A stretch of 39,422 nt of DNA, taken from the IMG/VR virus record IMGVR_UViG_3300045988_045917, positions 1 through 39,422 of that record; one strand, given 5' to 3'. The position numbers were made by a program, and so were the translations under genes. Below, piece after piece: positions 1 through 39,422 of the stretch. The DNA comes from a virus. The notes under the pieces are model-generated. The model ran no database searches and was not told the DNA's origin. It worked only from the letters and a program-made list of their open reading frames with translations. Position 1 is the stretch's first letter. The number at the start of each line of letters is the position of its first letter.

Positions 1-47
1 TATGACCCCGGTGAGATTCGAACTCACCTCTACGGTTTAGGAGACCA
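1..47 (-). repeat. att core copy (left): displaced, truncated 3' portion of a tRNA gene
   Basis: 47/47 nt identical to 39376-39422. The minus strand reads anticodon loop CTCCTAA, T-arm GTGAG-TTCGAAT-CTCAC and acceptor 3' strand CGGGGTC plus A. The adjoining 48-75 has no D-arm or acceptor 5' strand, so this copy is not an intact tRNA. Confidence 0.85.
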
Positions 48-218: not shown

Positions 219-234
219 TATTTCAGCGACTATT

Positions 235-255
235 GCCTCCCCTTGAAAGGAGGTG
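235..255 (+). promoter_or_regulatory. 5' UTR hairpin sequestering the toxin Shine-Dalgarno
   Basis: CCTCC (236-240) pairs with the SD GGAGG (249-253) across an 8-nt loop. SD occlusion is a known feature of type I toxin mRNAs. Confidence 0.45.
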
Positions 256-261
256 AGTTCG

Positions 262-366
262 TTGAAGGAATTTCTAACTTTAGTTGTAGCTCCAATTCTT
301 GTGGAAATAGTGAAATCACTGTTCGATCACTGGCTGGATGATTGGCATCACAACAAAAAACACTAA
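262..366 (+). CDS. fst: Type I toxin, Fst family (34 aa, TTG start): MKEFLTLVVAPILVEIVKSLFDHWLDDWHHNKKH
   Basis: SD AAAGGAGGTG lies 6-7 nt upstream of TTG. The peptide aligns with E. faecalis pAD1 Fst (MKDLMSLVIAPIFVGLV...) including the signature LVxAPIxV, followed by a charged C-tail. It is below the 60-aa ORF-track cutoff. Confidence 0.85.
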   Translation: MKEFLTLVVAPILVEIVKSLFDHWLDDWHHNKKH

Positions 367-412
367 TAGTCGCACTTCCACCCTCAACGTTTGATAGGTT
401 GCGTCAAGCGAT

Positions 413-455
413 AAAAAAAAGCATTACCTTTTGTGACGACTAGGTAATGCTTTTT
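413..455. terminator. Bidirectional intrinsic terminator shared by the toxin mRNA and the convergent antisense RNA
   Basis: A8 run, then 9-bp stem AGCATTACC (420-428) / GGTAATGCT (443-451), then T5 run. It can terminate transcription on both strands. Confidence 0.75.
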
Positions 456-21689: not shown

Positions 21690-22927
21690 GGTATGAAACC
21701 TCCTTTCTTGTTCCTGCTATAAATTGCATATCTAATAGCGTCTAGCCGGTCATTGTGTCTTACATCATTTTCTTTAAGTGGAAGTCCTGTACTTTCGTCC
21801 CAAGCATATTGATATATCTCATCAAGTAAGCCACTTGAAGCACCATCAACCACATAGAACTTTCCCTCTCGCATTTTCTTTGCTACGCATTCAATACCCG
21901 GTAAAACATTCTTATTAGCATTGATACAGTTAAGCCCGTTGGATTGAAACTCGTTCACATTATCAGGTCTGGCACTATCAGCATAAAAAATAAGATTGCG
22001 CCCGAACCTATTTTGTAAGTTCTGTGCAATCTTAACCCAGTAATTAATGAACTTGTGCTTCTGTGTGTAGTCTTCCAAGATGTAAGTATTACCGTCTTTA
22101 TCATCGCCCAGTAAGATAATCGGATTAGGGTGTTCATAACCCCAGTCAACGCCAACATAGTAATCTAAACCATCTGGAACACGATCTCTCGGAATTACCA
22201 TAGTGTCCTTATTAAAGTCTTGATAAACAATGCCGTCACCTGTAACCCATTGACCAAGTATTGAACGATCATAAAACATCCCACTTGGAGTAGCAGCTTT
22301 TAATGCTTCAACATAATCTTTTGAAAGGAATGTATTGTCGTCAATTGTAAAACTGAACGCCTTAATCCTTGCCTTAGGATCATGGTTATCAATGTAATCT
22401 GTCTTAAGCCAGTGTGTAGGAATATCAGGGTTTGTGTCACAGATAATTCTTGCTGATCTAACAGAACAACGCTGTACAATTTCCTGAAAAACTTCATGCG
22501 TTGCTAAACTTGCTTCGTTTATATAAGCCCCGTAAGAAGTCATACCACGAATAGCACCAATACCACGGACTGAACCTGTATAAGCTGGCACTATATCAAT
22601 ACCGAAAAGATGATAATGTCCGTGCCTGTCAGTCTTCATCACTATTCCAAATTGATTTTCTAGTGATGAGATGACGTTTGTGTAGATTGAATTGGAACTA
22701 TACCCCGCAAGGATATATTGAGGGTGTGGCTCCTTCTCGATCTCAGCAAGTTTTTTAATACGTTTAAGCTCTAGCAAGAAAAGATAGTTATCTATCACTG
22801 TCTTACCAGCACGAACAGCACCGTTTAAGATTAAGTACTTCCAATCATCATTAAGGTAGGATTGTAGCACCTTAATTTGTTTCTTCGTTAGTAGATTTAT
22901 CAGTGCCAACTTTTCCTGCCTCCTCAA
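21680..22927 (-). CDS. terL: Terminase large subunit (PBSX family)
   Basis: Walker A NGAVRAGKT. 415 aa, following terS. Confidence 0.85.
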   Translation of the reverse strand: MRRQEKLALINLLTKKQIKVLQSYLNDDWKYLILNGAVRAGKTVIDNYLFLLELKRIKKLAEIEKEPHPQYILAGYSSNSIYTNVISSLENQFGIVMKTDRHGHYHLFGIDIVPAYTGSVRGIGAIRGMTSYGAYINEASLATHEVFQEIVQRCSVRSARIICDTNPDIPTHWLKTDYIDNHDPKARIKAFSFTIDDNTFLSKDYVEALKAATPSGMFYDRSILGQWVTGDGIVYQDFNKDTMVIPRDRVPDGLDYYVGVDWGYEHPNPIILLGDDKDGNTYILEDYTQKHKFINYWVKIAQNLQNRFGRNLIFYADSARPDNVNEFQSNGLNCINANKNVLPGIECVAKKMREGKFYVVDGASSGLLDEIYQYAWDESTGLPLKENDVRHNDRLDAIRYAIYSRNKKGGFIPWN

Positions 22928-23369
22928 TTAGTTTATTCAATACCTGATCTAGTTGTTCGTTGTCCTCAGTTCCAAGCCGTTCAGCCACAATTGCTTTAGC
23001 TTCCTTAATTCGAGCATCAGCTTTAGTTTTTCTGATATTAGCTAATACCAACTCACGCTCTTCTTTAGATAACTGGCTGTCATTGTACTTGTCACGCCAA
23101 TTATTTTTCAGAAAGAAAATCATCGCTGTAGTGTTACCCGATAAGGCTTTTTTCAGCAATGCGTTCTCAACAATGATATTTATTTCATCTCGTCCTCTTT
23201 TTAATGCCTGCCCAATCTGTACATGCTCACGTTTCCACTTGTTTAAGGTATTAATACTAATACCCATGTTATGAGCTATTTCAGCATCAGTCAGACCGTC
23301 ACGCTTCCAACCTTGAAGAAGTACAAGCTTGTCTTTATCTAGCCACTCTTTATACATCGCTCTAGCCAT
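22872..23369 (-). CDS. terS: Terminase small subunit (HTH-containing); start set to ATG 23369
   Basis: HTH segment GLTDAEIAHNMGISINTLNKWKRE. GGTGGTG lies 9 nt upstream of the ATG. The track's GTG start lies inside the SD. Confidence 0.7.
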   Translation of the reverse strand: MARAMYKEWLDKDKLVLLQGWKRDGLTDAEIAHNMGISINTLNKWKREHVQIGQALKRGRDEINIIVENALLKKALSGNTTAMIFFLKNNWRDKYNDSQLSKEERELVLANIRKTKADARIKEAKAIVAERLGTEDNEQLDQVLNKLIEEAGKVGTDKSTNEETN

Positions 23370-23394
23370 TGCAAGTAACACCACCACCTTTATT

Positions 23395-23423
23395 GCAAAA
23401 TAAAAAGCCAGCTTATGCTGACT
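23395..23423 (-). terminator. Intrinsic terminator closing the moron cassette, about 25 nt upstream of terS
   Basis: The minus strand reads AGTCAGC-ATAA-GCTGGCT followed by TTTTTATTTT. Confidence 0.7.
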
Positions 23424-23426
23424 TAA

Positions 23427-23870
23427 TTACATTTTTTCAAGTGCTTTCAATAATATTTTTAATACTTTAAATTGTTCTGTTAAGGAAAATGCCAACGTTC
23501 CTCCAGTAATTGAGATAATAATTCTAGATAATAGACTAGTATCTTTTTCATTAAAGAGGAGAGCAACAAGTGCAAAGATTGAACACATCAAAAATCCAAA
23601 GATTGATAATAGCAATCTATCTAAAAATTTTTTATCCGTATTCAATTTCTTTAAGCTCTTTAATAATCTTGAATTAGGAAGCGCCGGTATAAGCGTAAAG
23701 CTTGCAAATAATAGTCCTGTTGTAATTGAAGAAAGAGACAATATGCCTGACATAACATCTGTATAATTATGTATCTTTATAGGAGTAATTTTTAAAATCA
23801 AAATTACCAGAATTGTAATAACGCCAACAAGAAGCGAGCCTCGGTTTCGTTTTAAACGTCCCTGTTTCAT
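23427..23870 (-). CDS. Small 4-TM membrane protein (147 aa), moron gene 2, candidate effector
   Basis: SD GAGGAGAGAGGG. Four hydrophobic segments (aa ~12-26, 39-64, 86-106, 112-130). Visibly more AT-rich than the flanking genes. Confidence 0.7.
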   Translation of the reverse strand: MKQGRLKRNRGSLLVGVITILVILILKITPIKIHNYTDVMSGILSLSSITTGLLFASFTLIPALPNSRLLKSLKKLNTDKKFLDRLLLSIFGFLMCSIFALVALLFNEKDTSLLSRIIISITGGTLAFSLTEQFKVLKILLKALEKM

Positions 23871-23902
23871 ATCCCTCTCTCCTCATTTTATTAAACTAAG
23901 AT

Positions 23903-24814
23903 CTATATAAAATTATGAACACAATAGTCATAATACTTATGATATGCTTTTTCTAAAAAGCCAAACATATTTTCGATAGTAACTATATTATCATACTCTA
24001 CATAGCCATGAAATACCAATTTATGCTGTACTAAATCAACAGGTTCAAAAACACCGTCATCATCTATTCCTTCAACTTTCAACTTTGTAATTCCTAAATT
24101 TTCACTATTTTTAAATAGTAATTTTGCTTTAGCAATAATATCTTTTAATTTTAGCGAATCTGCTTGTAAACATACAGTCATTTTTTGGGCACCGACATCG
24201 TTAGCATATTCCATATCTTTTATTTCATCTCTTGAATTATCTTTAATTGAAGGCAAATTATTTATTTTTGCTACTGAATACGTTATCGAAGACGTATCTT
24301 GCATTTTATCTAATTTGTTAATTGCAATTTCATCTGGAATGATTGCTAAGTTTAATCCTCTAATTTTACAAAATCGGATGAGAAAAGATTTAAATAGAGC
24401 TTTATTAACACCACCAGCAGTACGAGCAAAAGCGCAGATGTGAGTATGAGTATCATACAGAAATTGTGTATTTACTACGCTACCTTGATCGTCAGTTATA
24501 GGAAGTGTTTCATTGCGTTGCTCAATATTCTTTTTCATATCGCCAACTTGAATGGGACTAGTCGGATCCAATCTGCTTAAGTTTATTAACCAAGCATAAA
24601 TTTGACCACTTTCATCAACGTAAGCTTTATTCATAGAATTTATGTAATACTTATTGTCTCCTATTTCAATCGTCTCAATCTGATCGGAATGATGAGTTTT
24701 TAATAAATTATAAGTAGTACTTATCTTATCATCTAATTTTTTTAAAGTTTCGTCTTTGCCTTCAATATGATAAAAATTGACAGTACGAGGCTTCTTATTT
24801 TTATATTGGGTCAT
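23903..24814 (-). CDS. Uncharacterised soluble 303-aa protein, moron gene 1, candidate sensor/defence protein
   Basis: SD GGAGGGAG 7 nt upstream of the ATG, with a TATAAT box at 24833-24838. AT-rich. I recognise no catalytic motif. Confidence 0.7.
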   Translation of the reverse strand: MTQYKNKKPRTVNFYHIEGKDETLKKLDDKISTTYNLLKTHHSDQIETIEIGDNKYYINSMNKAYVDESGQIYAWLINLSRLDPTSPIQVGDMKKNIEQRNETLPITDDQGSVVNTQFLYDTHTHICAFARTAGGVNKALFKSFLIRFCKIRGLNLAIIPDEIAINKLDKMQDTSSITYSVAKINNLPSIKDNSRDEIKDMEYANDVGAQKMTVCLQADSLKLKDIIAKAKLLFKNSENLGITKLKVEGIDDDGVFEPVDLVQHKLVFHGYVEYDNIVTIENMFGFLEKAYHKYYDYCVHNFI

Positions 24815-24852
24815 CCAATACTCCCTCCTAATATTATATAGATTTATTTTAT

Positions 24853-24881
24853 CAATAAAAAAAGAAGGTTACATCCTTCTT
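24853..24881 (-). terminator. Intrinsic terminator ending the structured-RNA/tRNA unit
   Basis: The minus strand reads AAGAAGG-ATGTAA-CCTTCTT followed by TTTTTTATT. Confidence 0.75.
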
Positions 24882-24922
24882 CATGAATAATATTAGGAAA
24901 AGCCAAGAAATTTCTCAGCTTA

Positions 24923-24996
24923 TGGTAACTGATGGAATCGAACCACCGCTAACTTGGTACTTCACACCAATGCTCTACCAACTGAGCTAAGTTACC
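24923..24996 (-). tRNA. Phage-encoded tRNA-Phe(GAA)-like gene with atypical features
   Basis: Cloverleaf read by eye:
- Acceptor GGTAACT/AGTTACC, 7 bp perfect.
- D-arm GCTC-AGTTGGTA-GAGC.
- Anticodon arm TTGGT-GTGAAGT-ACCAA.
- T-arm GGTGG-TTCGATT-CCATC, discriminator A.
- U8, A14, G18G19, U33 and T54-C56 are present.
- Oddities are G32 and a 6-nt variable region (GTTAGC). Confidence 0.7.
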
Positions 24997-25203
24997 CAGA
25001 CTAGGAAAGCTGCTATACTTAAGCTTCGCTTTTACGATTGCCACGGCATCTCAGTATCAGATTTAATGCAGAGTTACGTGTCATCGCCGACTTACTGCTA
25101 GCCATTAAAACAATCAACCTATATAGAAAAGAAATGTTTAGATTAGCTTTTGTCACAAAACGAACAAACCTGGGAAAAACCGTAAGAACAAAACGCCAAT
25201 CTA

Positions 25204-25311
25204 GAGGATACATCGGAATTGAACCGATAAGAGATAATCGTTGTTGGCATACTTAGCTATATCTCGGTAGAACTGCCACTACCCCAGCTCGCCAATGGCT
25301 GGCTATATCCT
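25204..25311 (-). ncRNA. tRNA-like module TL4 (108 nt): full cloverleaf-like fold with an 8-nt anticodon-position loop and a 35-nt extra arm
   Basis: Elements read by eye:
- Acceptor AGGATAT/GTATCCT (7 bp, one GU).
- D-arm CCAG-CCATTGGCGAG-CTGG (Leu-type D-loop).
- Stem GGTAG/CTACC with loop TGGCAGTT.
- Extra arm GAGATA-(23 nt)-TATCTC.
- T-arm ATCGG-TTCAATT-CCGAT. Confidence 0.5.
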
Positions 25312-25430
25312 AGAATGCTCTGTTAGGCACAGAGCTAAACCAGATGCAATTCTGTAAATTAAAATCAGACAAACAAAATATATTCGTGATCTGAACAATA
25401 TTATTTTTACGCCTGCTTTCCGACAGGCAA

Positions 25431-25455
25431 TGGGCAGGCGAGGAATTGAACCCCA
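25431..25455 (-). ncRNA. tRNA-like module TL3: T-arm plus acceptor 3' strand
   Basis: TGGGG-TTCAATT-CCTCG, then CCTGCCC plus A. The upstream part shares GGCGAGC...GCTGGGG-AGT with TL4. A possible 5' partner is GGGTAG (6/7). Confidence 0.4.
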
Positions 25456-25661
25456 CTAAACATTGTGAAAGAAAATTCCTACTTTCTTTCTAAATTCCAA
25501 ATTGTGCCAATCTACCCACGGCAGTTGCTGCTGCGGTCCAGCCAACAACTCCCCAGCTCTTCCTACGCTCGCCTCGAAACCGTTGAGGGTCGTGGCATAG
25601 GCGTCATTTACCTAGGCAACTATTATATACAATAGCCAATAATGGACTACCGCCTAGGCTA

Positions 25662-25686
25662 TCAAGCAATCAGGATTCGAACCTGA
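25662..25686 (-). ncRNA. tRNA-like module TL2: T-arm plus acceptor 3' strand only
   Basis: TCAGG-TTCGAAT-CCTGA, then TTGCTTG plus A. The upstream sequence is AT-rich with no D or anticodon arm. Confidence 0.35.
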
Positions 25687-25797
25687 GTGCCTGAGTCAAA
25701 TAAATAAGAAAAAGTAAAAAATAAAAGAATTGTAAGCCAAAAGCCAAAAATAAAATTCATTTAGAGGAATGTTTATCGCCTGAATTTACTCAGGCTA

Positions 25798-25845
25798 TAA
25801 CCGCCAGTCGGATCGAACAACTGCTAACGTCTACCAAGAACGGTT
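25798..25845 (-). ncRNA. tRNA-like module TL1: minihelix-type element lacking an anticodon arm
   Basis: AACCGTT / GGCGGTT acceptor (7 bp, two GU). D-arm remnant CGT-TCTTGGTAG-ACG. Variable region TTAGC, the same as in the Phe-like tRNA. T-arm AGTTG-TTCGATC-CGACT, discriminator A. Confidence 0.4.
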
Positions 25846-25986
25846 ACTTTAATCTGTTACTTACTGAAACAAATTAAGAACTGTATTAATTTCGAAAGGA
25901 GATTTTCTTTCAAACGTACCGCACGTAGTACTGTCAAGGTGAAGTCGAAAGATCGTAACCACCACGTCTAATCTTTCGACAATAAC

Positions 25987-26043
25987 AATTTATCATGAAA
26001 CGTACGCAAGCAGTGCGCAAGGTTTACGCAAGCTTTACGCACG
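25987..26043 (-). promoter_or_regulatory. Candidate activator-dependent (late) promoter: four phased CTTGCGYA repeats plus an extended -10
   Basis: The minus strand reads GTGCGTAAAG CTTGCGTAAAC CTTGCGCACTG CTTGCGTACGT at a 10-11 bp period, then TGATAAATT (TG-extended -10). There is no -35 consensus. It lies directly downstream of the ArpU-like gene. Confidence 0.5.
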
Positions 26044-26044
26044 A

Positions 26045-26575
26045 CTAATTTTTCCGGATCTTAATTTTATCCGGCCATACTGTTTTTACCTTTTGACTGA
26101 AAACTCTTAAGTCTGGTAAATCATCAACACCAAAGTATCTTTTCCAGTAAAGCCAACGATCAGCGAACTCACATTGTGCGTTAATCTTCTTAGTATCAAT
26201 TGACCTAGTCGACAGATTAACTGTAGCTGCTACATCAACAATGCGTAATTGATCAATGTATGTTCCAATTAAGATACGTCTGTAAGGCTTTAATGCTGTG
26301 TCAGTGCAATTATCCATTGTTCGATAAATTGCTGCACAGACCTTTCTAGCAGGATCAGCAATGTCGATATCGTCTTGTGCTTCGTCAATGAAATTCTTCT
26401 CAACGCCATTTTTGTTTGTTGATCCTGGTGCGAATGATAATTGAGGGCTTGTAAGTTGATTACGGTGTAAGCCAGCTAAATTAAGATAGCTCTGAAAATT
26501 AATAGTCAGGAACTTATCCACCCTTTTAGCAGTAGCTCTTAAATTTGGCTGTAATCCTAAGTCAATTTGATACAC
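26045..26575 (-). CDS. ArpU-family late transcription regulator (GTG start)
   Basis: 176 aa, the last gene of the early region upstream of the packaging genes. The sequence pattern is consistent with phage ArpU/RinA-like regulators. SD GAGAGGGAG. Confidence 0.6.
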   Translation of the reverse strand: MYQIDLGLQPNLRATAKRVDKFLTINFQSYLNLAGLHRNQLTSPQLSFAPGSTNKNGVEKNFIDEAQDDIDIADPARKVCAAIYRTMDNCTDTALKPYRRILIGTYIDQLRIVDVAATVNLSTRSIDTKKINAQCEFADRWLYWKRYFGVDDLPDLRVFSQKVKTVWPDKIKIRKN

Positions 26576-36457: not shown

Positions 36458-37192
36458 ATGTTTATCGGTATTCTTATTGTAATTATAGTCTTTCTATTTT
36501 TTTATATTTTAGGTAGCAAGTCTGCTTCCTCTAATAATGAAACTAATTCTATCTCTCATTCTGAAAATGATGATAAGTATTCAGAATATTTTAAAATAAT
36601 GGATTTAAGGCCTAAATTTAGAGATTATTACGGCAGAGATATGGACTATCCCAAATATAATGATAAATACAATACGGGAACTGAATTTAAGTTGCGACAG
36701 TTGTTGTTATTAGTATGGTTTAGTAGAACCAAAAAAGGACGTTTAGTGACTACATCAATTCCTCAGTATTTTTACTACGATTACAACATTAATGGCAATA
36801 AACTTTTGCAACACTTTATTGCTAGAGGTTGGATAATCGAAGATGACGAAAGATACATATTGTCTGATGAAGGAAAAAAAGTTGCTAAACAGTATGCAGC
36901 TTTGTGGGAATTACACAGAAATAATCAATTTCCATTCTGTTTAGATGAAGATTATCCAAATTGGAATGATGGCAAGCTCTTAAAAAAATATTACGAAAAA
37001 GAAATACAATATTTCAAAGCATTCATCGAATATGATAAGAAACTGATTAATTTTTATAAAGAAACTCCTTCTTACTTTACAAGTAAAGAAGAACAACAAC
37101 ATGAAATTCAAGCTGAAAAAGCTGATATAGAGAGATTAAAACATCAAATAAATAAAGATAGAGATAAGATATCACTTGAAGTCCAATTCTGA
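36458..37192 (+). CDS. N-terminally membrane-anchored 244-aa protein of unknown function (lysogeny-module accessory gene)
   Basis: TM segment FIGILIVIIVFLFFYIL. AT-rich. Co-oriented with the repressor and so presumably expressed in the lysogen. Confidence 0.65.
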   Translation: MFIGILIVIIVFLFFYILGSKSASSNNETNSISHSENDDKYSEYFKIMDLRPKFRDYYGRDMDYPKYNDKYNTGTEFKLRQLLLLVWFSRTKKGRLVTTSIPQYFYYDYNINGNKLLQHFIARGWIIEDDERYILSDEGKKVAKQYAALWELHRNNQFPFCLDEDYPNWNDGKLLKKYYEKEIQYFKAFIEYDKKLINFYKETPSYFTSKEEQQHEIQAEKADIERLKHQINKDRDKISLEVQF

Positions 37193-37235
37193 TGACTTTA
37201 AAAGCTGATGTGAATGTTTTACTCGGAGGATAATT

Positions 37236-37967
37236 ATGGGATTATTTGATAATTTAAGCCAAAAAATTACTGATGCATCAGCTAAGCGCAAAGAAGCAAA
37301 AGCTGAAAAGAAAAAGCAAAGAGAACAAGAAGATCAAGAATATGAACAATTGCTAAATACATTTCTTGCTAATAAAGCAACTCAATATTCAAATATTTAT
37401 TTTGATCTAAAGTCTAATCAAATATTAATAGGTCGTCGACTTTTGTCTCGAGAATATAGACTACTTAGTTTTTCTGATATTCAAACTTATGATATTAGTC
37501 AACAAGACCACAATGAGACAGAAACAAAAAGTACAAGCAAAAAGAAACATACGATTACTCGATCCGTTGCCGGTGGTCTAATTGCTGGTCCTGTTGGAGC
37601 TGTCATTGGTGGCGTTACTGGAAAAACAAAAGGTCATTCAAATTCAGTTACTAAAGAATATCTTGATTATTTAGGACTATCTATTATGCTAAAAGATGGC
37701 TCGACTTTTGCCATTCCCTTTCTTACGCAAACAACTAAAAGTGACAGTTATACTGCTCAAAATGCTTATAACGAATTGTATGACATCATGGCAATAATTA
37801 AAGCAGGAATGAATGCTACTAAACAACAAGAAGAAAATATCGCAGATTCTTCATCAAGTAACACAAGTCCTTTAGATGAAATCAAAAAATTAAAAGAATT
37901 ACTCGATATGAATGCCATTACACAGGAAGAGTTTGAAGCTAAGAAAAAAGAGTTATTAAATTTATAA
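37236..37967 (+). CDS. SHOCT-domain protein with a glycine-zipper segment (lysogeny-module accessory gene)
   Basis: The C-terminus LDEIKKLKELLDMNAITQEEFEAKKKELL is SHOCT-like. GGLIAGPVGAVIGGVTG is a glycine zipper. Confidence 0.65.
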   Translation: MGLFDNLSQKITDASAKRKEAKAEKKKQREQEDQEYEQLLNTFLANKATQYSNIYFDLKSNQILIGRRLLSREYRLLSFSDIQTYDISQQDHNETETKSTSKKKHTITRSVAGGLIAGPVGAVIGGVTGKTKGHSNSVTKEYLDYLGLSIMLKDGSTFAIPFLTQTTKSDSYTAQNAYNELYDIMAIIKAGMNATKQQEENIADSSSSNTSPLDEIKKLKELLDMNAITQEEFEAKKKELLNL

Positions 37968-39375: not shown

Positions 39376-39422
39376 TATGACCCCGGTGAGATTCGAACTC
39401 ACCTCTACGGTTTAGGAGACCA
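39376..39422 (-). tRNA. 3' portion of a tRNA (anticodon loop CTCCTAA gives CCT, Arg) that continues past the window edge; it is also the right att core copy
   Basis: The minus strand reads ...GGT-CTCCTAA-ACCGT-AGAG-GTGAG-TTCGAAT-CTCAC-CGGGGTC-A. The 5' half would lie beyond 39422. Confidence 0.6.

What the first reader, a model, noticed from the sequence alone, without database searches (positions are those of the whole stretch)
24853..26043. 1.15-kb ORF-free promoter-to-terminator unit packed with tRNA-derived RNA modules between the late regulator and the packaging genes
The ORF track shows only two short, SD-less ORFs here. On the minus strand the region reads as a discrete transcription unit:
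- Start: phased TTGCGTA repeats plus an extended -10 at 25987-26043.
- Body: about 1 kb of dense secondary structure.
- End: a clean intrinsic terminator at 24853-24881.

Stems and long-range pairings seen include:
- GTCGAAAGAT / ATCTTTCGAC (25980-25944).
- GCTCTG-TGCCTAA-CAGAGC (~25335-25317).
- GAAAGAAA / TTTCTTTC (25490-25467).
- AGTTG...GCTG-GACCG-CAGC...CAACT (~25550-25522).
- Long-range TAGGCG (~25656) with CGCCTA (~25592).

Five elements carry a canonical T-arm (GTTCRAWYC-type loop), a 7-nt acceptor 3' strand and a discriminator base. Their 3' ends fall at 25798, 25662, 25431, 25204 and 24923. Only the last is a near-normal tRNA.

Three modules are followed by related trailer hairpins:
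- GCCTGA-GTAAAT-TCAGGC at 25778-25795.
- GCCTG-TCGGAAAG-CAGGC at 25411-25428.
- AGCTGAG-AAATTT-CTTGGCT at 24901-24920.

The size, the prophage context in a Lactobacillales-like genome and the association with tRNAs match what is published for the GOLLD and ROOL giant RNAs. I cannot confirm that assignment by eye. If it is neither class, this is an undescribed tRNA-derived RNA array expressed as the leader of the late operon.
Basis: partly seen in the sequence, partly recalled or inferred. Interest (0 to 1): 0.88.

Follow-up and report, generated by a model that had tools for sequence, protein, structure and literature searches.

The report
Phage late-leader array of tRNA-like RNAs
A Lactobacillus prophage carries, between its late-gene activator and its DNA-packaging genes, a 1.1-kb protein-free transcription unit made of one real tRNA, four truncated or odd tRNA look-alikes and several conserved RNA folds; relatives share it, but it is not one of the known giant phage RNAs (GOLLD, ROOL).

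Summary
Window 24853-26043 (minus strand) is an ORF-free unit. It starts with four 11-nt-phased TTGCGTA repeats plus an extended -10, placed right after an ArpU/Ltr-type activator gene, and it ends in an intrinsic terminator.

It contains five canonical T-loops where about 0.03 are expected:
- One true tRNA-Phe.
- Four tRNA-like modules that keep a 7-bp acceptor stem and a T-arm but lack a decoding anticodon arm.

Rfam 15 gives no GOLLD, ROOL, tmRNA or other match at E<=10, so that assignment is not supported.

The same layout occurs in about 45 IMG/VR contigs and eight GenBank Lactobacillus phages (gasseri, johnsonii, jensenii). Compensatory changes support:
- the m2 acceptor/T-arm minihelix;
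- the m3 module;
- the trailer hairpins;
- a central domain with a K-turn-like hairpin.

Blocks are deleted or swapped among relatives, and I found no covarying long-range helix. It therefore behaves as an array of cassettes, not one giant fold.

Best reading: an activator-driven late-leader precursor RNA, cut by host RNase P and RNase Z at the tRNA-like modules into a tRNA and stable small RNAs, with the terminator limiting flow into the packaging genes. Transcription and processing are inferred, not shown. I found no Rfam family or published description for it.

The parts
26045..26575 (-). Late activator gene of the Ltr/ArpU type, 176 aa
   Evidence: It matches phrog_248 'transcriptional activator' at E=1.7e-32. 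It matches TIGR01637 phage_arpU at E=6e-8, which is below the curated cutoff. Homologues are annotated as transcriptional activator or ArpU family.
26003..26042 (-). Four 7-nt direct repeats ((G/T)TGCG(T/C)A) at an 11-nt phase; presumed binding sites for the activator
   Evidence: The repeats are read from the sequence. They are conserved wherever this activator is present and replaced in Lj965 and the Lv-1 group. Ltr proteins bind 7-nt repeats immediately distal to their own gene (PMC3753634).
25987..25995 (-). Extended -10 (TGaTAAATT) of the late promoter; predicted transcription start near 25980
   Evidence: Read from the sequence and conserved in all groups, including Lj965. The consensus scan lists no -35 hexamer here, as expected for an activator-dependent promoter.
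25944..25980 (-). 5'-terminal hairpin GUCGAAAGAU / AUCUUUCGAC
   Evidence: It is recovered in the minimum-free-energy and consensus folds. It is invariant, so there is no covariation evidence. A natural deletion variant (L023) breaks it in the loop.
25890..25913 (-). Hairpin UUUGAAAG / CUUUCGAA with a CUCC-containing loop that resembles an anti-Shine-Dalgarno sequence
   Evidence: It appears in the consensus fold. The CUCC motif is kept in groups A, B and C.
25797..25846 (-). m1: tRNA-like module with a 7-bp acceptor stem (UAACCGU/GCGGUUA), a 3-bp D-like hairpin with a UGGU loop, and a 6-bp T-arm; no anticodon arm
   Evidence: The consensus fold has compensatory changes in the D-like and T stems. 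An analogous module exists in the Lv-1 group (GACCAAG/CUUGGUU). Neither ARAGORN nor Rfam calls it a tRNA.
25778..25795 (-). Trailer hairpin 1 (GCCUGA-GUAAAU-UCAGGC), which follows 'UAG' after m1
   Evidence: Compensatory changes occur at two of its pairs.
25661..25694 (-). m2: acceptor-stem/T-arm minihelix, i.e. the top half of a tRNA
   Evidence: It folds with z = -4.3. Eight of 13 pairs show compensatory changes and 90.6% of cells are paired, against 29-49% in the slid controls.
25609..25658 (-). Central domain, helix P-a (CCUAGGC/GCCUAGG), enclosing the hairpin GGUAGUC/GRYUAUU
   Evidence: Both helices are 100% paired across 26 sequences, with one compensatory pair.
25562..25601 (-). K-turn-like hairpin: C-stem CCUAUGC/GCGUAGG, bulge CAC, tandem GA/GA, stem CCUC/GAGG, and a 9-nt loop AACGGUUUC that is invariant in groups A and B
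   Evidence: Four of 7 C-stem pairs show compensatory changes. The same layout occurs in the Lv-1 group with C-stem GUCUGC/GCGGAC. The K-turn assignment rests on the sequence pattern only.
25523..25550 (-). Hairpin P-c (AGUUGUUGG...CAGCAACU)
   Evidence: It has two compensatory pairs and is 99% paired.
25431..25517 (-). m3: 87-nt tRNA-like module with an acceptor stem GGGUAGA/CCUGCCC, a degenerate D region, an 8-bp stem in place of the anticodon arm, and a T-arm
   Evidence: ARAGORN reports it only at -ps80, as tRNA-? with a 4-nt 'anticodon'. There is no Rfam tRNA match. The helices are 98-100% paired and include compensatory pairs. The loop is 8 nt in some relatives and 5 nt in others, so it does not decode.
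25411..25428 (-). Trailer hairpin 3 (GCCUG-UCGGAAAG-CAGGC)
   Evidence: Four of 6 pairs show compensatory changes.
25317..25335 (-). Cassette leader hairpin GCUCUG-UGCCUAA-CAGAGC
   Evidence: The same hairpin precedes tRNA genes in Lj965 (twice), in JNU_P7 and in other loci.
25204..25311 (-). m4: 108-nt class-II-like tRNA look-alike with a 7-bp acceptor stem, a D-arm, an 8-nt 'anticodon' loop, a variable arm of about 35 nt, and a T-arm
   Evidence: The fold is. It is not called by ARAGORN or Rfam. Only six sequence variants are available; the D-stem change CCAGC/GCUGG to CUAGC/GCUAG is compensatory. It occupies the slot that holds tRNA-Gln, tRNA-Phe or the Lj965 'tRNA-Ser' in relatives.
25139..25203 (-). 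Long trailer hairpin of the m4 cassette (UAGAUUGGCG...GCUAAUCUA)
   Evidence: The fold and its co-occurrence with m4 are. A related trailer follows the Lj965 odd tRNA.
25000..25138 (-). Module b: a conserved non-coding element of about 130 nt that precedes tRNA genes
   Evidence: It is found upstream of tRNA-Glu in L034 and Lj928, and of a truncated tRNA-Phe in L013 and L014. Some pairs are compensatory.
24923..24996 (-). tRNA-Phe (GAA); canonical, with no encoded CCA
   Evidence: Called by ARAGORN and by Rfam RF00005 at 59.6 bits.
24901..24920 (-). Trailer hairpin after tRNA-Phe (AGCUGAG-AAAUUU-CUUGGCU)
   Evidence: Read from the sequence. Covariation was not tested.
24853..24882 (-). Intrinsic terminator that closes the unit
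   Evidence: Found by the scan. The same terminator is present in L003, L011, L012 and L027, and different terminators sit at the equivalent place in most other loci.

Best explanation
The region is the non-coding first segment of the phage's late transcript.

1. After induction, the ArpU/Ltr-type activator binds the four phased repeats. It switches on the extended -10 promoter, with a predicted start near 25980.
2. This produces a precursor of about 1.1 kb that ends, at least partly, at the intrinsic terminator (24853-24882).
3. The precursor is a string of cassettes. Each cassette has a tRNA or a tRNA look-alike that keeps only what tRNA-processing enzymes read: a 7-bp acceptor stem, a T-arm, often a GG-containing D-like loop that would form the elbow, a discriminator base, and no encoded CCA. 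This is followed by 'UAG' (or a similar short sequence) and a stable hairpin.
4. Host RNase P would cut 5' of each module and RNase Z would cut 3' of it.
5. The products would be one functional tRNA-Phe, several small tRNA-like RNAs, and the intervening structured pieces. The main intervening piece is the central domain of about 140 nt with its K-turn-like hairpin.
6. The hairpins next to each cut would protect the new ends. The terminator would limit how much transcription reaches the moron genes and the packaging genes.

**Shown:** the sequence anatomy, conservation of the layout in three phage groups, and compensatory base changes.

**Inferred:** transcription, activator binding, RNase P and RNase Z cleavage, and any downstream role of the products.
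For: **Promoter logic**
- It matches published Ltr/ArpU biology: 7-nt repeats immediately distal to the activator gene.
- The repeats change together with the activator type, while the transcribed part is kept.

**tRNA-like modules**
- Five T-loops lie on one strand within 0.9 kb.
- The m2 minihelix covaries at 8 of 13 pairs.
- The stretch from the central domain through m3 and trailer hairpin 3 is 98.8% paired with 13 compensatory pairs, against 36-51% paired and 1-5 compensatory pairs in the slid controls.
- m1 has compensatory pairs.
- The m3 'anticodon' loop changes length (8 nt versus 5 nt) while its stem covaries, so decoding is not what is selected.
- All modules lack an encoded CCA and are followed by a hairpin.

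**Conservation and modularity**
- The same layout occurs in L. gasseri/johnsonii phages, in the L. jensenii Lv-1 group (which has no canonical tRNA at all) and in Lj928/JNU_P7.
- Canonical and non-canonical bodies occupy the same cassette slot, with the same leader and trailer hairpins.
- Terminators of unrelated sequence close the unit in most loci.

**Established knowledge, not tested here**
- Acceptor/T-arm minihelices are substrates of RNase P and of the CCA-adding enzyme.
- CCA-less precursors are RNase Z substrates in Firmicutes.
Against: - There is no transcript or cleavage data.
- Covariation comes from closely related phages (72-95% identity), so many compensatory cells trace back to a few events.
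- m4 has only six sequence variants.
- The 5' hairpin and the K-turn loop never vary, so covariation does not test them.
- The model does not say what the released RNAs do.
- A terminator between the only recognisable late promoter and terS is awkward for a plain leader. It hints at an antitermination or attenuation layer that this model does not explain.
- Natural variants lack parts of the array or all of it (L008/L015, L011, L016/L022, L023). The array is therefore dispensable, or those prophages are decaying.
Confidence: 0.55

Rival explanations
1. The region is one large structured RNA of a new class, analogous to GOLLD and ROOL. It would function as a whole, for example as a multimeric particle, with tRNA-like domains embedded in it and not used as cleavage sites.
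For: - The genomic context is the one published for GOLLD and ROOL: prophage, next to tRNA genes, and tRNAs are sometimes embedded in GOLLD.
- The region of about 590 nt folds far better than shuffles, z = -4.23.
- The m2-central-m3 segment is kept together in all three phage groups.
- An invariant 9-nt loop on a K-turn-like hairpin could be a tertiary or intermolecular contact.
Against: - There is no Rfam GOLLD or ROOL match at E<=10.
- No long-range helix shows compensatory changes. The only candidate is 6 bp (25939-25934 with 25577-25572), varies on one side only, and competes with the K-turn stem.
- Relatives delete m1+m2, or m2 plus half of the central domain, or the 3' part of m3.
- Group C lacks m1 and the invariant loop.
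Confidence: 0.13
2. The region is a cis-acting leader that controls late transcription. The conserved 5' hairpin, the central domain, or both would make RNA polymerase resistant to the terminators that lie between the late promoter and terS (put-like processive antitermination), or would attenuate it. The tRNA-like parts would be passengers.
For: - Two intrinsic terminators (24853-24882 and 23405-23424) lie between the only Ltr-type promoter and terS. No convincing promoter lies in between.
- A terminator sits at the end of the RNA unit in most relatives and directly before the first ribosome-binding site in the Lv-1 group.
- The 5' hairpin at the predicted +1 is invariant even where the activator differs.
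- L023 keeps the promoter, part of the hairpin and a terminator while losing the array.
Against: - In the phages studied, Ltr proteins were reported to be the only phage proteins needed for late-operon activation, and no RNA element was reported.
- There is no similarity to any Rfam cis-regulatory family.
- L023 lacks the central domain, and L011 lacks the K-turn hairpin.
- This reading does not explain the selection on acceptor/T-arm geometry.
Confidence: 0.15
3. The region is a decaying phage tRNA gene cluster. The look-alikes would be pseudogenes left by deletions inside former tRNA genes, with no function of their own.
For: - Relatives carry ordinary tRNA genes (Gln, Glu, Tyr, Phe) in the same slots.
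- Truncated tRNA-Phe remnants exist in L013, L014 and L023.
- Block deletions are common.
Against: - Neutral decay would not maintain pairing. The m2 acceptor stem changes at six of seven positions between relatives and stays paired.
- The m1, m3 and trailer hairpins also covary.
- The modules persist in three diverged phage groups, including one with no canonical tRNA.
Confidence: 0.09
4. The region acts at the DNA level, as a pac/cos or terminase recognition region upstream of terS, and not as RNA.
For: - It lies upstream of the packaging genes.
- An 18-nt invariant near-palindrome is present.
Against: - G-U pairs are tolerated in the covarying helices.
- The T-loop signatures are strand-specific and lie on the sense strand.
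- Two moron ORFs and two terminators separate the region from terS in the window.
- The distance to terS varies freely among relatives.
Confidence: 0.03

Closest known systems
Phage tRNA gene clusters ('tRNA islands'), including the T4 tRNA region with its two co-processed stable RNAs (species 1 and 2; own knowledge)
   Same: - It is a polycistronic non-coding unit in a phage genome holding tRNA genes plus extra small stable RNAs with tRNA-like ends.
- Cassettes are exchanged between related phages.
   Different: - Most members here are not decoding tRNAs. They are top-half mimics under selection.
- The unit sits directly behind the Ltr-dependent late promoter and is closed by a terminator.
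- It includes non-tRNA folds: the K-turn-like central domain and module b.
GOLLD (RF01998) and ROOL (RF03087) large phage/prophage RNAs
   Same: - The context is the same: prophage, Lactobacillales, adjacent to or interleaved with tRNA genes.
- The length is several hundred nucleotides.
- There is no protein partner or known function.
   Different: - There is no covariance-model match.
- There is no evidence of a single ornate fold with long-range helices or pseudoknots.
- The blocks can be deleted and swapped.
tRNA-like processing handles: the MALAT1/mascRNA 3' end, mitochondrial 'tRNA punctuation', and the RNase P-processed C4 RNA of phages P1/P7 (own knowledge)
   Same: A tRNA-shaped element inside a longer transcript recruits RNase P and/or RNase Z to define RNA ends. 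The module anatomy here (acceptor stem, T-arm, elbow, no CCA) fits that use.
   Different: - Cleavage has not been demonstrated here.
- Several handles are arranged in series.
- The setting is a Gram-positive temperate phage.
Bacterial and phage Y RNAs (YrlA) and the tRNA-like domain of tmRNA (own knowledge)
   Same: These are non-coding RNAs that carry an acceptor/T-arm/D-loop mimic without an anticodon arm, like m1 and m2.
   Different: - No Rfam Y_RNA, YrlA or tmRNA match was found.
- None of the ORFs scanned next to the unit matched a Ro/Rsr (TROVE) family; the rest of the window was not scanned.
- There is no mRNA-like tag region (ARAGORN default).
Ltr (RinA/ArpU/LtrA-C) late-operon promoters of Gram-positive phages (PMC3753634)
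   Same: [quoted passage not shown] Seven-nucleotide direct repeats lie immediately distal to it, and a promoter drives the packaging genes.
   Different: In the studied phages the promoter is followed closely by terS. Here a structured RNA unit of 0.7-1.4 kb and a terminator are inserted between them.

Membership tests
GOLLD RNA (Rfam RF01998) | A match to the family covariance model (conserved 3' domain), at gathering score or at least at a marginal E-value | tested here: not met
   There was no hit at E<=10 on 24500-26400 or 25195-25530, and none at gathering score in the window or in 7 related loci. That Rfam holds the profile is confirmed by PMC12286853. No positive control was run.
ROOL RNA (Rfam RF03087) | A match to the family covariance model (about 580 nt, six multistem junctions, three pseudoknots) | tested here: not met
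   The same searches gave no hit. No long-range or multistem architecture is supported by covariation.
GOLLD/ROOL-type context | Located in a prophage or phage, next to tRNA genes | tested here: met
   The window is a complete prophage bounded by 47-nt att repeats. tRNA-Phe lies inside the unit, and relatives carry 1-4 tRNAs there.
Canonical tRNA (RF00005 / ARAGORN) | A full cloverleaf with a 7-nt anticodon loop, scored by the model | tested here: not met
   This feature is met only by 24923-24996 (59.6 bits). m1-m4 give no RF00005 hit at E<=10. m3 appears only at ARAGORN -ps80, with a 4-nt 'anticodon'.
tRNA-like top half (acceptor/T-arm minihelix) | A 7-bp acceptor stem stacked on a T-arm with a UUCRANY loop, a discriminator base, and maintenance by compensatory change | tested here: met
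   m2 is supported, m1, and m3. For m4 the evidence is the fold plus one compensatory D-stem change.
tRNA-like top half (acceptor/T-arm minihelix) | Cleavage by RNase P and RNase Z, and CCA addition | not testable with these tools
   This needs enzyme assays or mapping of transcript ends.
tmRNA | A tRNA-like domain plus a tag reading frame, detected by ARAGORN or Rfam | tested here: not met
   ARAGORN at default settings found none. Only spurious 'tmRNAp' calls appeared at -ps70. There was no Rfam hit.
Ltr/ArpU-dependent late promoter | Direct repeats of about 7 nt immediately distal to the activator gene, upstream of the late promoter | tested here: met
   Four repeats at an 11-nt phase begin 3 nt after the stop codon. 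They co-vary with the activator type.
Ltr/ArpU-dependent late promoter | The activator belongs to the ArpU family | tested here: inconclusive
   TIGR01637 scores E=6e-8 but only 32.9 bits, against a cutoff of 43.1. phrog_248 matches at E=1.7e-32. There is no Pfam hit.
Kink-turn (K-turn) motif | C-stem, 3-nt bulge, tandem sheared G.A/A.G pairs, then an NC-stem | tested here: inconclusive
   The sequence pattern fits: UGC-CAC-GA-C-CCUC ... GAGG-C-GA-GCG. The C-stem covaries and GA/GA is invariant. Kinking and protein binding cannot be tested here.
Bacterial Y RNA (YrlA) | A tRNA-like domain plus a Ro/Rsr-binding stem, with an rsr gene nearby | tested here: not met
   There was no Rfam Y RNA hit. 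None of the seven ORFs flanking the unit that were scanned against Pfam matched a TROVE/Rsr family; the remaining ORFs of the window were not scanned.

The most novel reading that the evidence does not exclude
The shared m2 - central domain - m3 segment would be a new class of phage non-coding RNA. It consists of a minihelix, a K-turn-like hairpin with an invariant loop, and a tRNA-like 3' module. The class would be made at the start of late transcription and would use tRNA mimicry for a purpose beyond processing. Possible purposes:
- decoying host tRNA-directed defence nucleases or tRNA-binding factors;
- making RNA polymerase read through the terminators that precede the packaging genes;
- acting in the same still-unknown pathway as GOLLD and ROOL.

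That would make it a third, smaller and modular solution found in the same genomic niche.
Probability: 0.3. Interest if true: 0.8.

Novelty: new variant of a known kind. Interest (0 to 1): 0.6.

Why it matters
**Link to an open question.** GOLLD and ROOL are abundant, structurally spectacular phage RNAs that sit next to tRNA genes, and their function is still unknown. This locus occupies the same niche in Lactobacillus phages but is built differently. It is a string of small cassettes in which tRNA genes have been pared down to the part that tRNA-processing enzymes recognise.

**If the modules are cleavage handles.** This would be a natural bacterial-virus counterpart of 'tRNA punctuation' and of engineered tRNA-gRNA arrays. 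It would also show how phage tRNA islands can evolve into factories for other small RNAs.

**Late-gene control.** Intrinsic terminators lie between the Ltr-dependent late promoter and terS. How read-through is achieved is an unaddressed point in the current model of late-gene control in Gram-positive phages.

**Tractability.**
- Cultivable hosts are available.
- Phages such as phi jlb1 and KC5a are reported as inducible (own knowledge; not checked here).
- Natural deletion variants exist.

**Practical value.** The modules are missed by ARAGORN and Rfam and are sometimes annotated as hypothetical proteins, as in KC5a orf28 and Lv-1.

Tried and rejected
- **Rfam.** Searches at gathering score and at E<=10, on the whole window and on sub-regions, found only tRNA-Phe, RefB11 (elsewhere in the window) and noise.
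- **ARAGORN with lowered thresholds, introns and the mitochondrial model.** Only m3 emerged, at -ps80. Calls at -ps70 and with -mt look spurious.
- **Genome-contig scan with the activator protein.** It returned one short MAG contig, so IMG/VR was used instead.
- **Mis-typed motif scan.** The pattern contained an extra base. It hit only unrelated contigs, several of them tRNA-Ser(CGA) genes read on the opposite strand. This wasted one scan. It did show that the complement of the invariant motif resembles a tRNA-Ser anticodon arm. I treat that as probable coincidence.
- **Alignment A3.** It was built from guessed coordinates and is unusable. The m1 evidence rests.
- **ROOL positive control.** I fetched part of pMP118 but the ROOL locus was not in that piece, so I did not pursue it. 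I relied on PMC12286853 for the presence of the GOLLD and ROOL profiles in Rfam.
- **Single long-range fold.** The consensus fold of the full 590 nt gave only one 6-bp distant helix with no compensatory change.
Rejected.
- **Protein-coding reading.** Rejected. ORFs are short, not conserved and broken by indels.
- **Neighbouring ORFs.** Pfam, NCBIfam and PADLOC gave nothing for the 303-aa and 147-aa ORFs.
- **Literature.** Searches found no description of this element. The catalogue of 10,006 viral candidate RNAs (PMC10690425) could contain pieces of it, but no supplement was held to check.

Full report
**Context**

The window is a complete prophage. Its first 47 bases are repeated exactly at its last 47 bases, and that repeat carries a tRNA T-arm and acceptor end, so it is an att core. 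Genes run on the minus strand.

The finding lies between a 176-aa ORF (26045-26575) and a 303-aa ORF (23903-24814). The 303-aa ORF is followed by a 147-aa membrane ORF, a terminator, TerS (22872-23387) and TerL. The 176-aa protein matches phrog_248 'transcriptional activator' at E=1.7e-32. It also matches NCBIfam TIGR01637 (ArpU family packaging/lysis regulator) at E=6e-8, below that model's cutoff. The closest GenBank relatives are Lactobacillus gasseri and L. johnsonii phages: phi jlb1, KC5a, JNU_P11, Lj771, Lj965, Lj928 and JNU_P7.

Yes.
- No ORF longer than 72 aa lies in 24815-26044.
- Four 7-nt repeats begin 3 nt after the activator's stop codon. They lie at 26042, 26031, 26020 and 26009, exactly 11 nt apart. 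They are followed by TGaTAAATT (25995-25987).
- Published work on Ltr proteins (RinA, ArpU, LtrA-C) shows that they bind 7-nt direct repeats immediately distal to their own gene and thereby activate the late (terS) promoter (PMC3753634).
- In the alignment of 31 distinct homologous regions, the repeats are conserved wherever this activator is present. They are replaced by other repeats in Lj965 and in the Lv-1 group, which have different activators. The -10 element and the transcribed sequence stay conserved.
- The terminator (stem 24882-24861 plus a T-run) is found by the scan. One terminator is not above chance in this stretch. However, nearly every homologous locus has an intrinsic terminator, of at least six unrelated sequences, after the last tRNA and before the first sizeable ORF.

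**tRNA and tRNA-like modules**

ARAGORN and Rfam recognise only tRNA-Phe(GAA) at 24923-24996. Yet the T-loop pattern GTTCRAWYC occurs five times on the minus strand between 24935 and 25818. The whole window has eight matches against 2.4 expected by chance on both strands, so about 0.03 would be expected for this stretch and strand.

| Module | Window coordinates | Anatomy | Evidence |
|---|---|---|---|
| m1 | 25846-25797 | 7-bp acceptor stem, 3-bp hairpin with a UGGU loop (D-loop-like), 6-bp T-arm, no anticodon arm | |
| m2 | 25694-25661 | Acceptor stem stacked directly on a T-arm (a minihelix); fold z = -4.3 | |
| m3 | 25517-25431 | 87 nt; acceptor stem, degenerate D region, 8-bp stem with an 8-nt loop, T-arm; ARAGORN reports it only at 80% threshold, with a four-base 'anticodon' | |
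| m4 | 25311-25204 | Class-II-like cloverleaf with an 8-nt anticodon loop and a variable arm of about 35 nt | |

None of the four reaches even E=10 against the Rfam tRNA model. None encodes CCA. Each is followed by a short sequence (UAG, UUG or UAAG) and then a hairpin.

**Comparative evidence**

The activator protein retrieved 35 IMG/VR loci. An invariant 17-mer retrieved 46 stretches of DNA, of which about a dozen were new, related contigs.

The stretch 26044 to about 25300 is conserved at 72-95% identity. Recurrent breakpoints occur at 25300/25316, 25136/25186 and 24996, which are cassette boundaries. Downstream, different phages carry tRNA-Gln, Glu, Tyr, Phe or m4 in the same slots.

Covariation results:
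- **m2 (18 distinct sequences).** 8 of 13 pairs show changes on both sides. 90.6% of cells are paired, against 29-49% when the partner column is slid. No shuffle out of 500 reached the observed score. For example, the acceptor stem UCAGGCA/UGCUUGA in the window is AUGACUA/UAGUCAU in L036.
- **Central domain, m3 and trailer hairpin 3 (26 sequences, 59 pairs).** 98.8% of cells are paired and 13 pairs are compensatory. The slid controls give 36-51% paired and 1-5 compensatory pairs.
- **m1 and its trailer hairpin.** They have four compensatory pairs.
- **m3 long stem.** The loop is 8 nt in gasseri-type sequences and 5 nt in johnsonii-type sequences, while the stem covaries. The loop is therefore not an anticodon loop.

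These results exclude neutral decay of old tRNA genes for m1-m3. For m4 the data are thin (six variants).

**The central domain**

Between m2 and m3 lie three elements:
- a 7-bp helix (25658-25652 with 25615-25609) that encloses a hairpin;
- a second helix, CCUAUGC/GCGUAGG (25601-25595 with 25568-25562);
- the hairpin P-c at 25550-25523.

The second helix leads into a hairpin with this order: C-stem, 3-nt bulge (CAC), GA, one non-Watson-Crick position, CCUC, a 9-nt loop AACGGUUUC, GAGG, one base, GA, C-stem. This is the consensus arrangement of a kink-turn. I infer that from the pattern only. The C-stem covaries at four of seven pairs, and the GA/GA dinucleotides and the loop are invariant in groups A and B.

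**More distant relatives**

The 17-mer scan uncovered a diverged group, L. jensenii phage Lv-1-like. It has:
- a different repeat set (GACCGGAAAAA);
- its own 5' hairpin;
- an m1-type module (GACCAAG/CUUGGUU), then UAG and a hairpin;
- an AT-rich spacer;
- an m2-type module with a UGGU D-like loop;
- the K-turn-like hairpin with a different C-stem (GUCUGC/GCGGAC);
- a P-c-type hairpin;
- an acceptor-like closing stem followed by A-UAG-hairpin;
- a terminator directly before the first ribosome-binding site.

It has no canonical tRNA at all.

A third group, Lj928 and JNU_P7, keeps the 5' hairpin, an m2-type minihelix, a shortened central domain without the 9-nt loop, P-c, m3 and its trailer. It lacks m1. 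The segment m2 - central domain - m3 is therefore the common denominator.

**One big RNA or an array?**

The 591-nt region folds much better than shuffles, z = -4.23. However, the consensus fold of 28 full-length homologues contains only local elements plus one 6-bp distant helix (25939-25934 with 25577-25572). That helix varies on one side only and competes with the K-turn stem.

Natural variants delete whole blocks:
- L008 and L015 lack 25868-25591.
- L011 lacks 25735-25550.
- L016 and L022 join 25436 to 25009.
- L023 has lost the entire array, by recombination between GTGGTGGTT in the 5'-hairpin loop and GGTGGTTCGATTCC of a tRNA-Phe T-arm. It keeps the promoter and a terminator.

The leader hairpin GCUCUG...CAGAGC and the long trailer hairpin recur around different bodies, including the odd 'tRNA-Ser' of Lj965. 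The unit therefore behaves as a cassette array.

**Known families**

Rfam 15 holds GOLLD and ROOL profiles. Neither matches the window nor seven related loci. I found no match to tmRNA, Y RNA, T-box or any other family. Full-text searches found no description of this element. A catalogue of 10,006 unnamed viral RNA candidates exists and could include fragments of it, but I could not check that.

**Mechanism**

- *Shown:* the anatomy, its conservation, and selection on the acceptor, T-arm and elbow features and on the flanking hairpins.
- *Established elsewhere, not tested here:* acceptor/T-arm minihelices are substrates for RNase P and the CCA-adding enzyme, and CCA-less precursors are cut by RNase Z in Firmicutes.
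- *Inferred:* the activator-driven late promoter makes a precursor of about 1.1 kb. RNase P and RNase Z cut it at each module. This releases tRNA-Phe, small tRNA-like RNAs and the central RNA of about 140 nt. The hairpins next to each cut stabilise the products, and the terminator throttles transcription into the moron and packaging genes.
- *Unexplained:* what the released RNAs do, and how late transcription passes two terminators before terS. The second point keeps a put-like antitermination role alive as a rival.

**Verdict**

The GOLLD/ROOL assignment is not supported.

I file it as a new variant of a known kind: a phage tRNA island or tRNA-associated phage ncRNA. Interest is moderate to high. 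The structure evidence is good, but the phylogenetic range is narrow (phages of the L. gasseri, johnsonii and jensenii group). The array is demonstrably deletable, and no function can yet be assigned.

Noticed in passing
window 1-47 and 39376-39422: A perfect 47-nt direct repeat (TATGACCCCGGTGAGATTCGAACTCACC...) sits at both ends of the window. On the minus strand it reads as a tRNA T-arm plus acceptor 3' end. It is therefore the att core of a prophage integrated into a tRNA gene, and the window is the whole prophage.
   Followed up: partly
window 228-415 (+): There is an Rfam hit above gathering score to RefB11 (Enterococcus sRNA B11): 66 bits against a threshold of 54. It lies just inside the left att site. 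Its role in a Lactobacillus prophage is unknown.
   Followed up: no
window 23405-24814 (-): A 303-aa ORF (phrog_11507, unknown function) and a 147-aa membrane ORF are followed by their own terminator (23424-23405). They are inserted between the RNA unit and terS. This looks like a moron or accessory cassette. Pfam, NCBIfam and PADLOC give no match. Relatives carry ParB-like nuclease, methyltransferase, SieB or other genes at this position.
   Followed up: partly
window 25576-25590 (-) versus loci L091, L092, L097 and others: The complement of the invariant motif (CUCGAAACCGUUGAG) differs by a single A from the anticodon arm and variable-arm start of tRNA-Ser(CGA) genes found in unrelated phages (CUCGAAAACCGUUGAG). 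This may be coincidence. Alternatively the loop might pair with a tRNA.
   Followed up: no
L023 3600-3720: This is a natural variant in which the whole RNA array is deleted. The 5'-hairpin loop is fused to the T-arm and acceptor end of a tRNA-Phe through a shared GGTGGTT, and a terminator follows. It would be a ready-made deletion mutant if that prophage is viable.
   Followed up: partly
window 25000-25138 (-); L034 4403-4540; L006 about 2690-2820: This is a separate conserved non-coding element of about 130 nt ('module b'). It sits immediately upstream of different tRNA genes (Phe, Glu) in different phages. It has a few compensatory pairs and no Rfam match.
   Followed up: partly
window 25897-25901 (-) and equivalents in groups B and C: A CUCC(U) motif, which resembles an anti-Shine-Dalgarno sequence, lies in the loop of a hairpin early in the leader. 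It is kept in all three phage groups, and a second CCUC lies in the AT-rich spacer. It could pair with ribosome-binding sites.
   Followed up: no
L003 2923-2993 (Lj965): The annotated 'tRNA-Ser' is called tRNA-??? with a two-base anticodon by ARAGORN, yet it scores 47 bits with the Rfam tRNA model. It occupies the same cassette slot as m4. Odd tRNAs seem to be a recurring feature of these arrays.
   Followed up: partly
L002 3011-3295 (KC5a orf28); Lv-1 36588-37300: Public annotations place 'hypothetical protein' CDSs over the central domain and m3 region. These are probably mis-annotations of the RNA unit.
   Followed up: no
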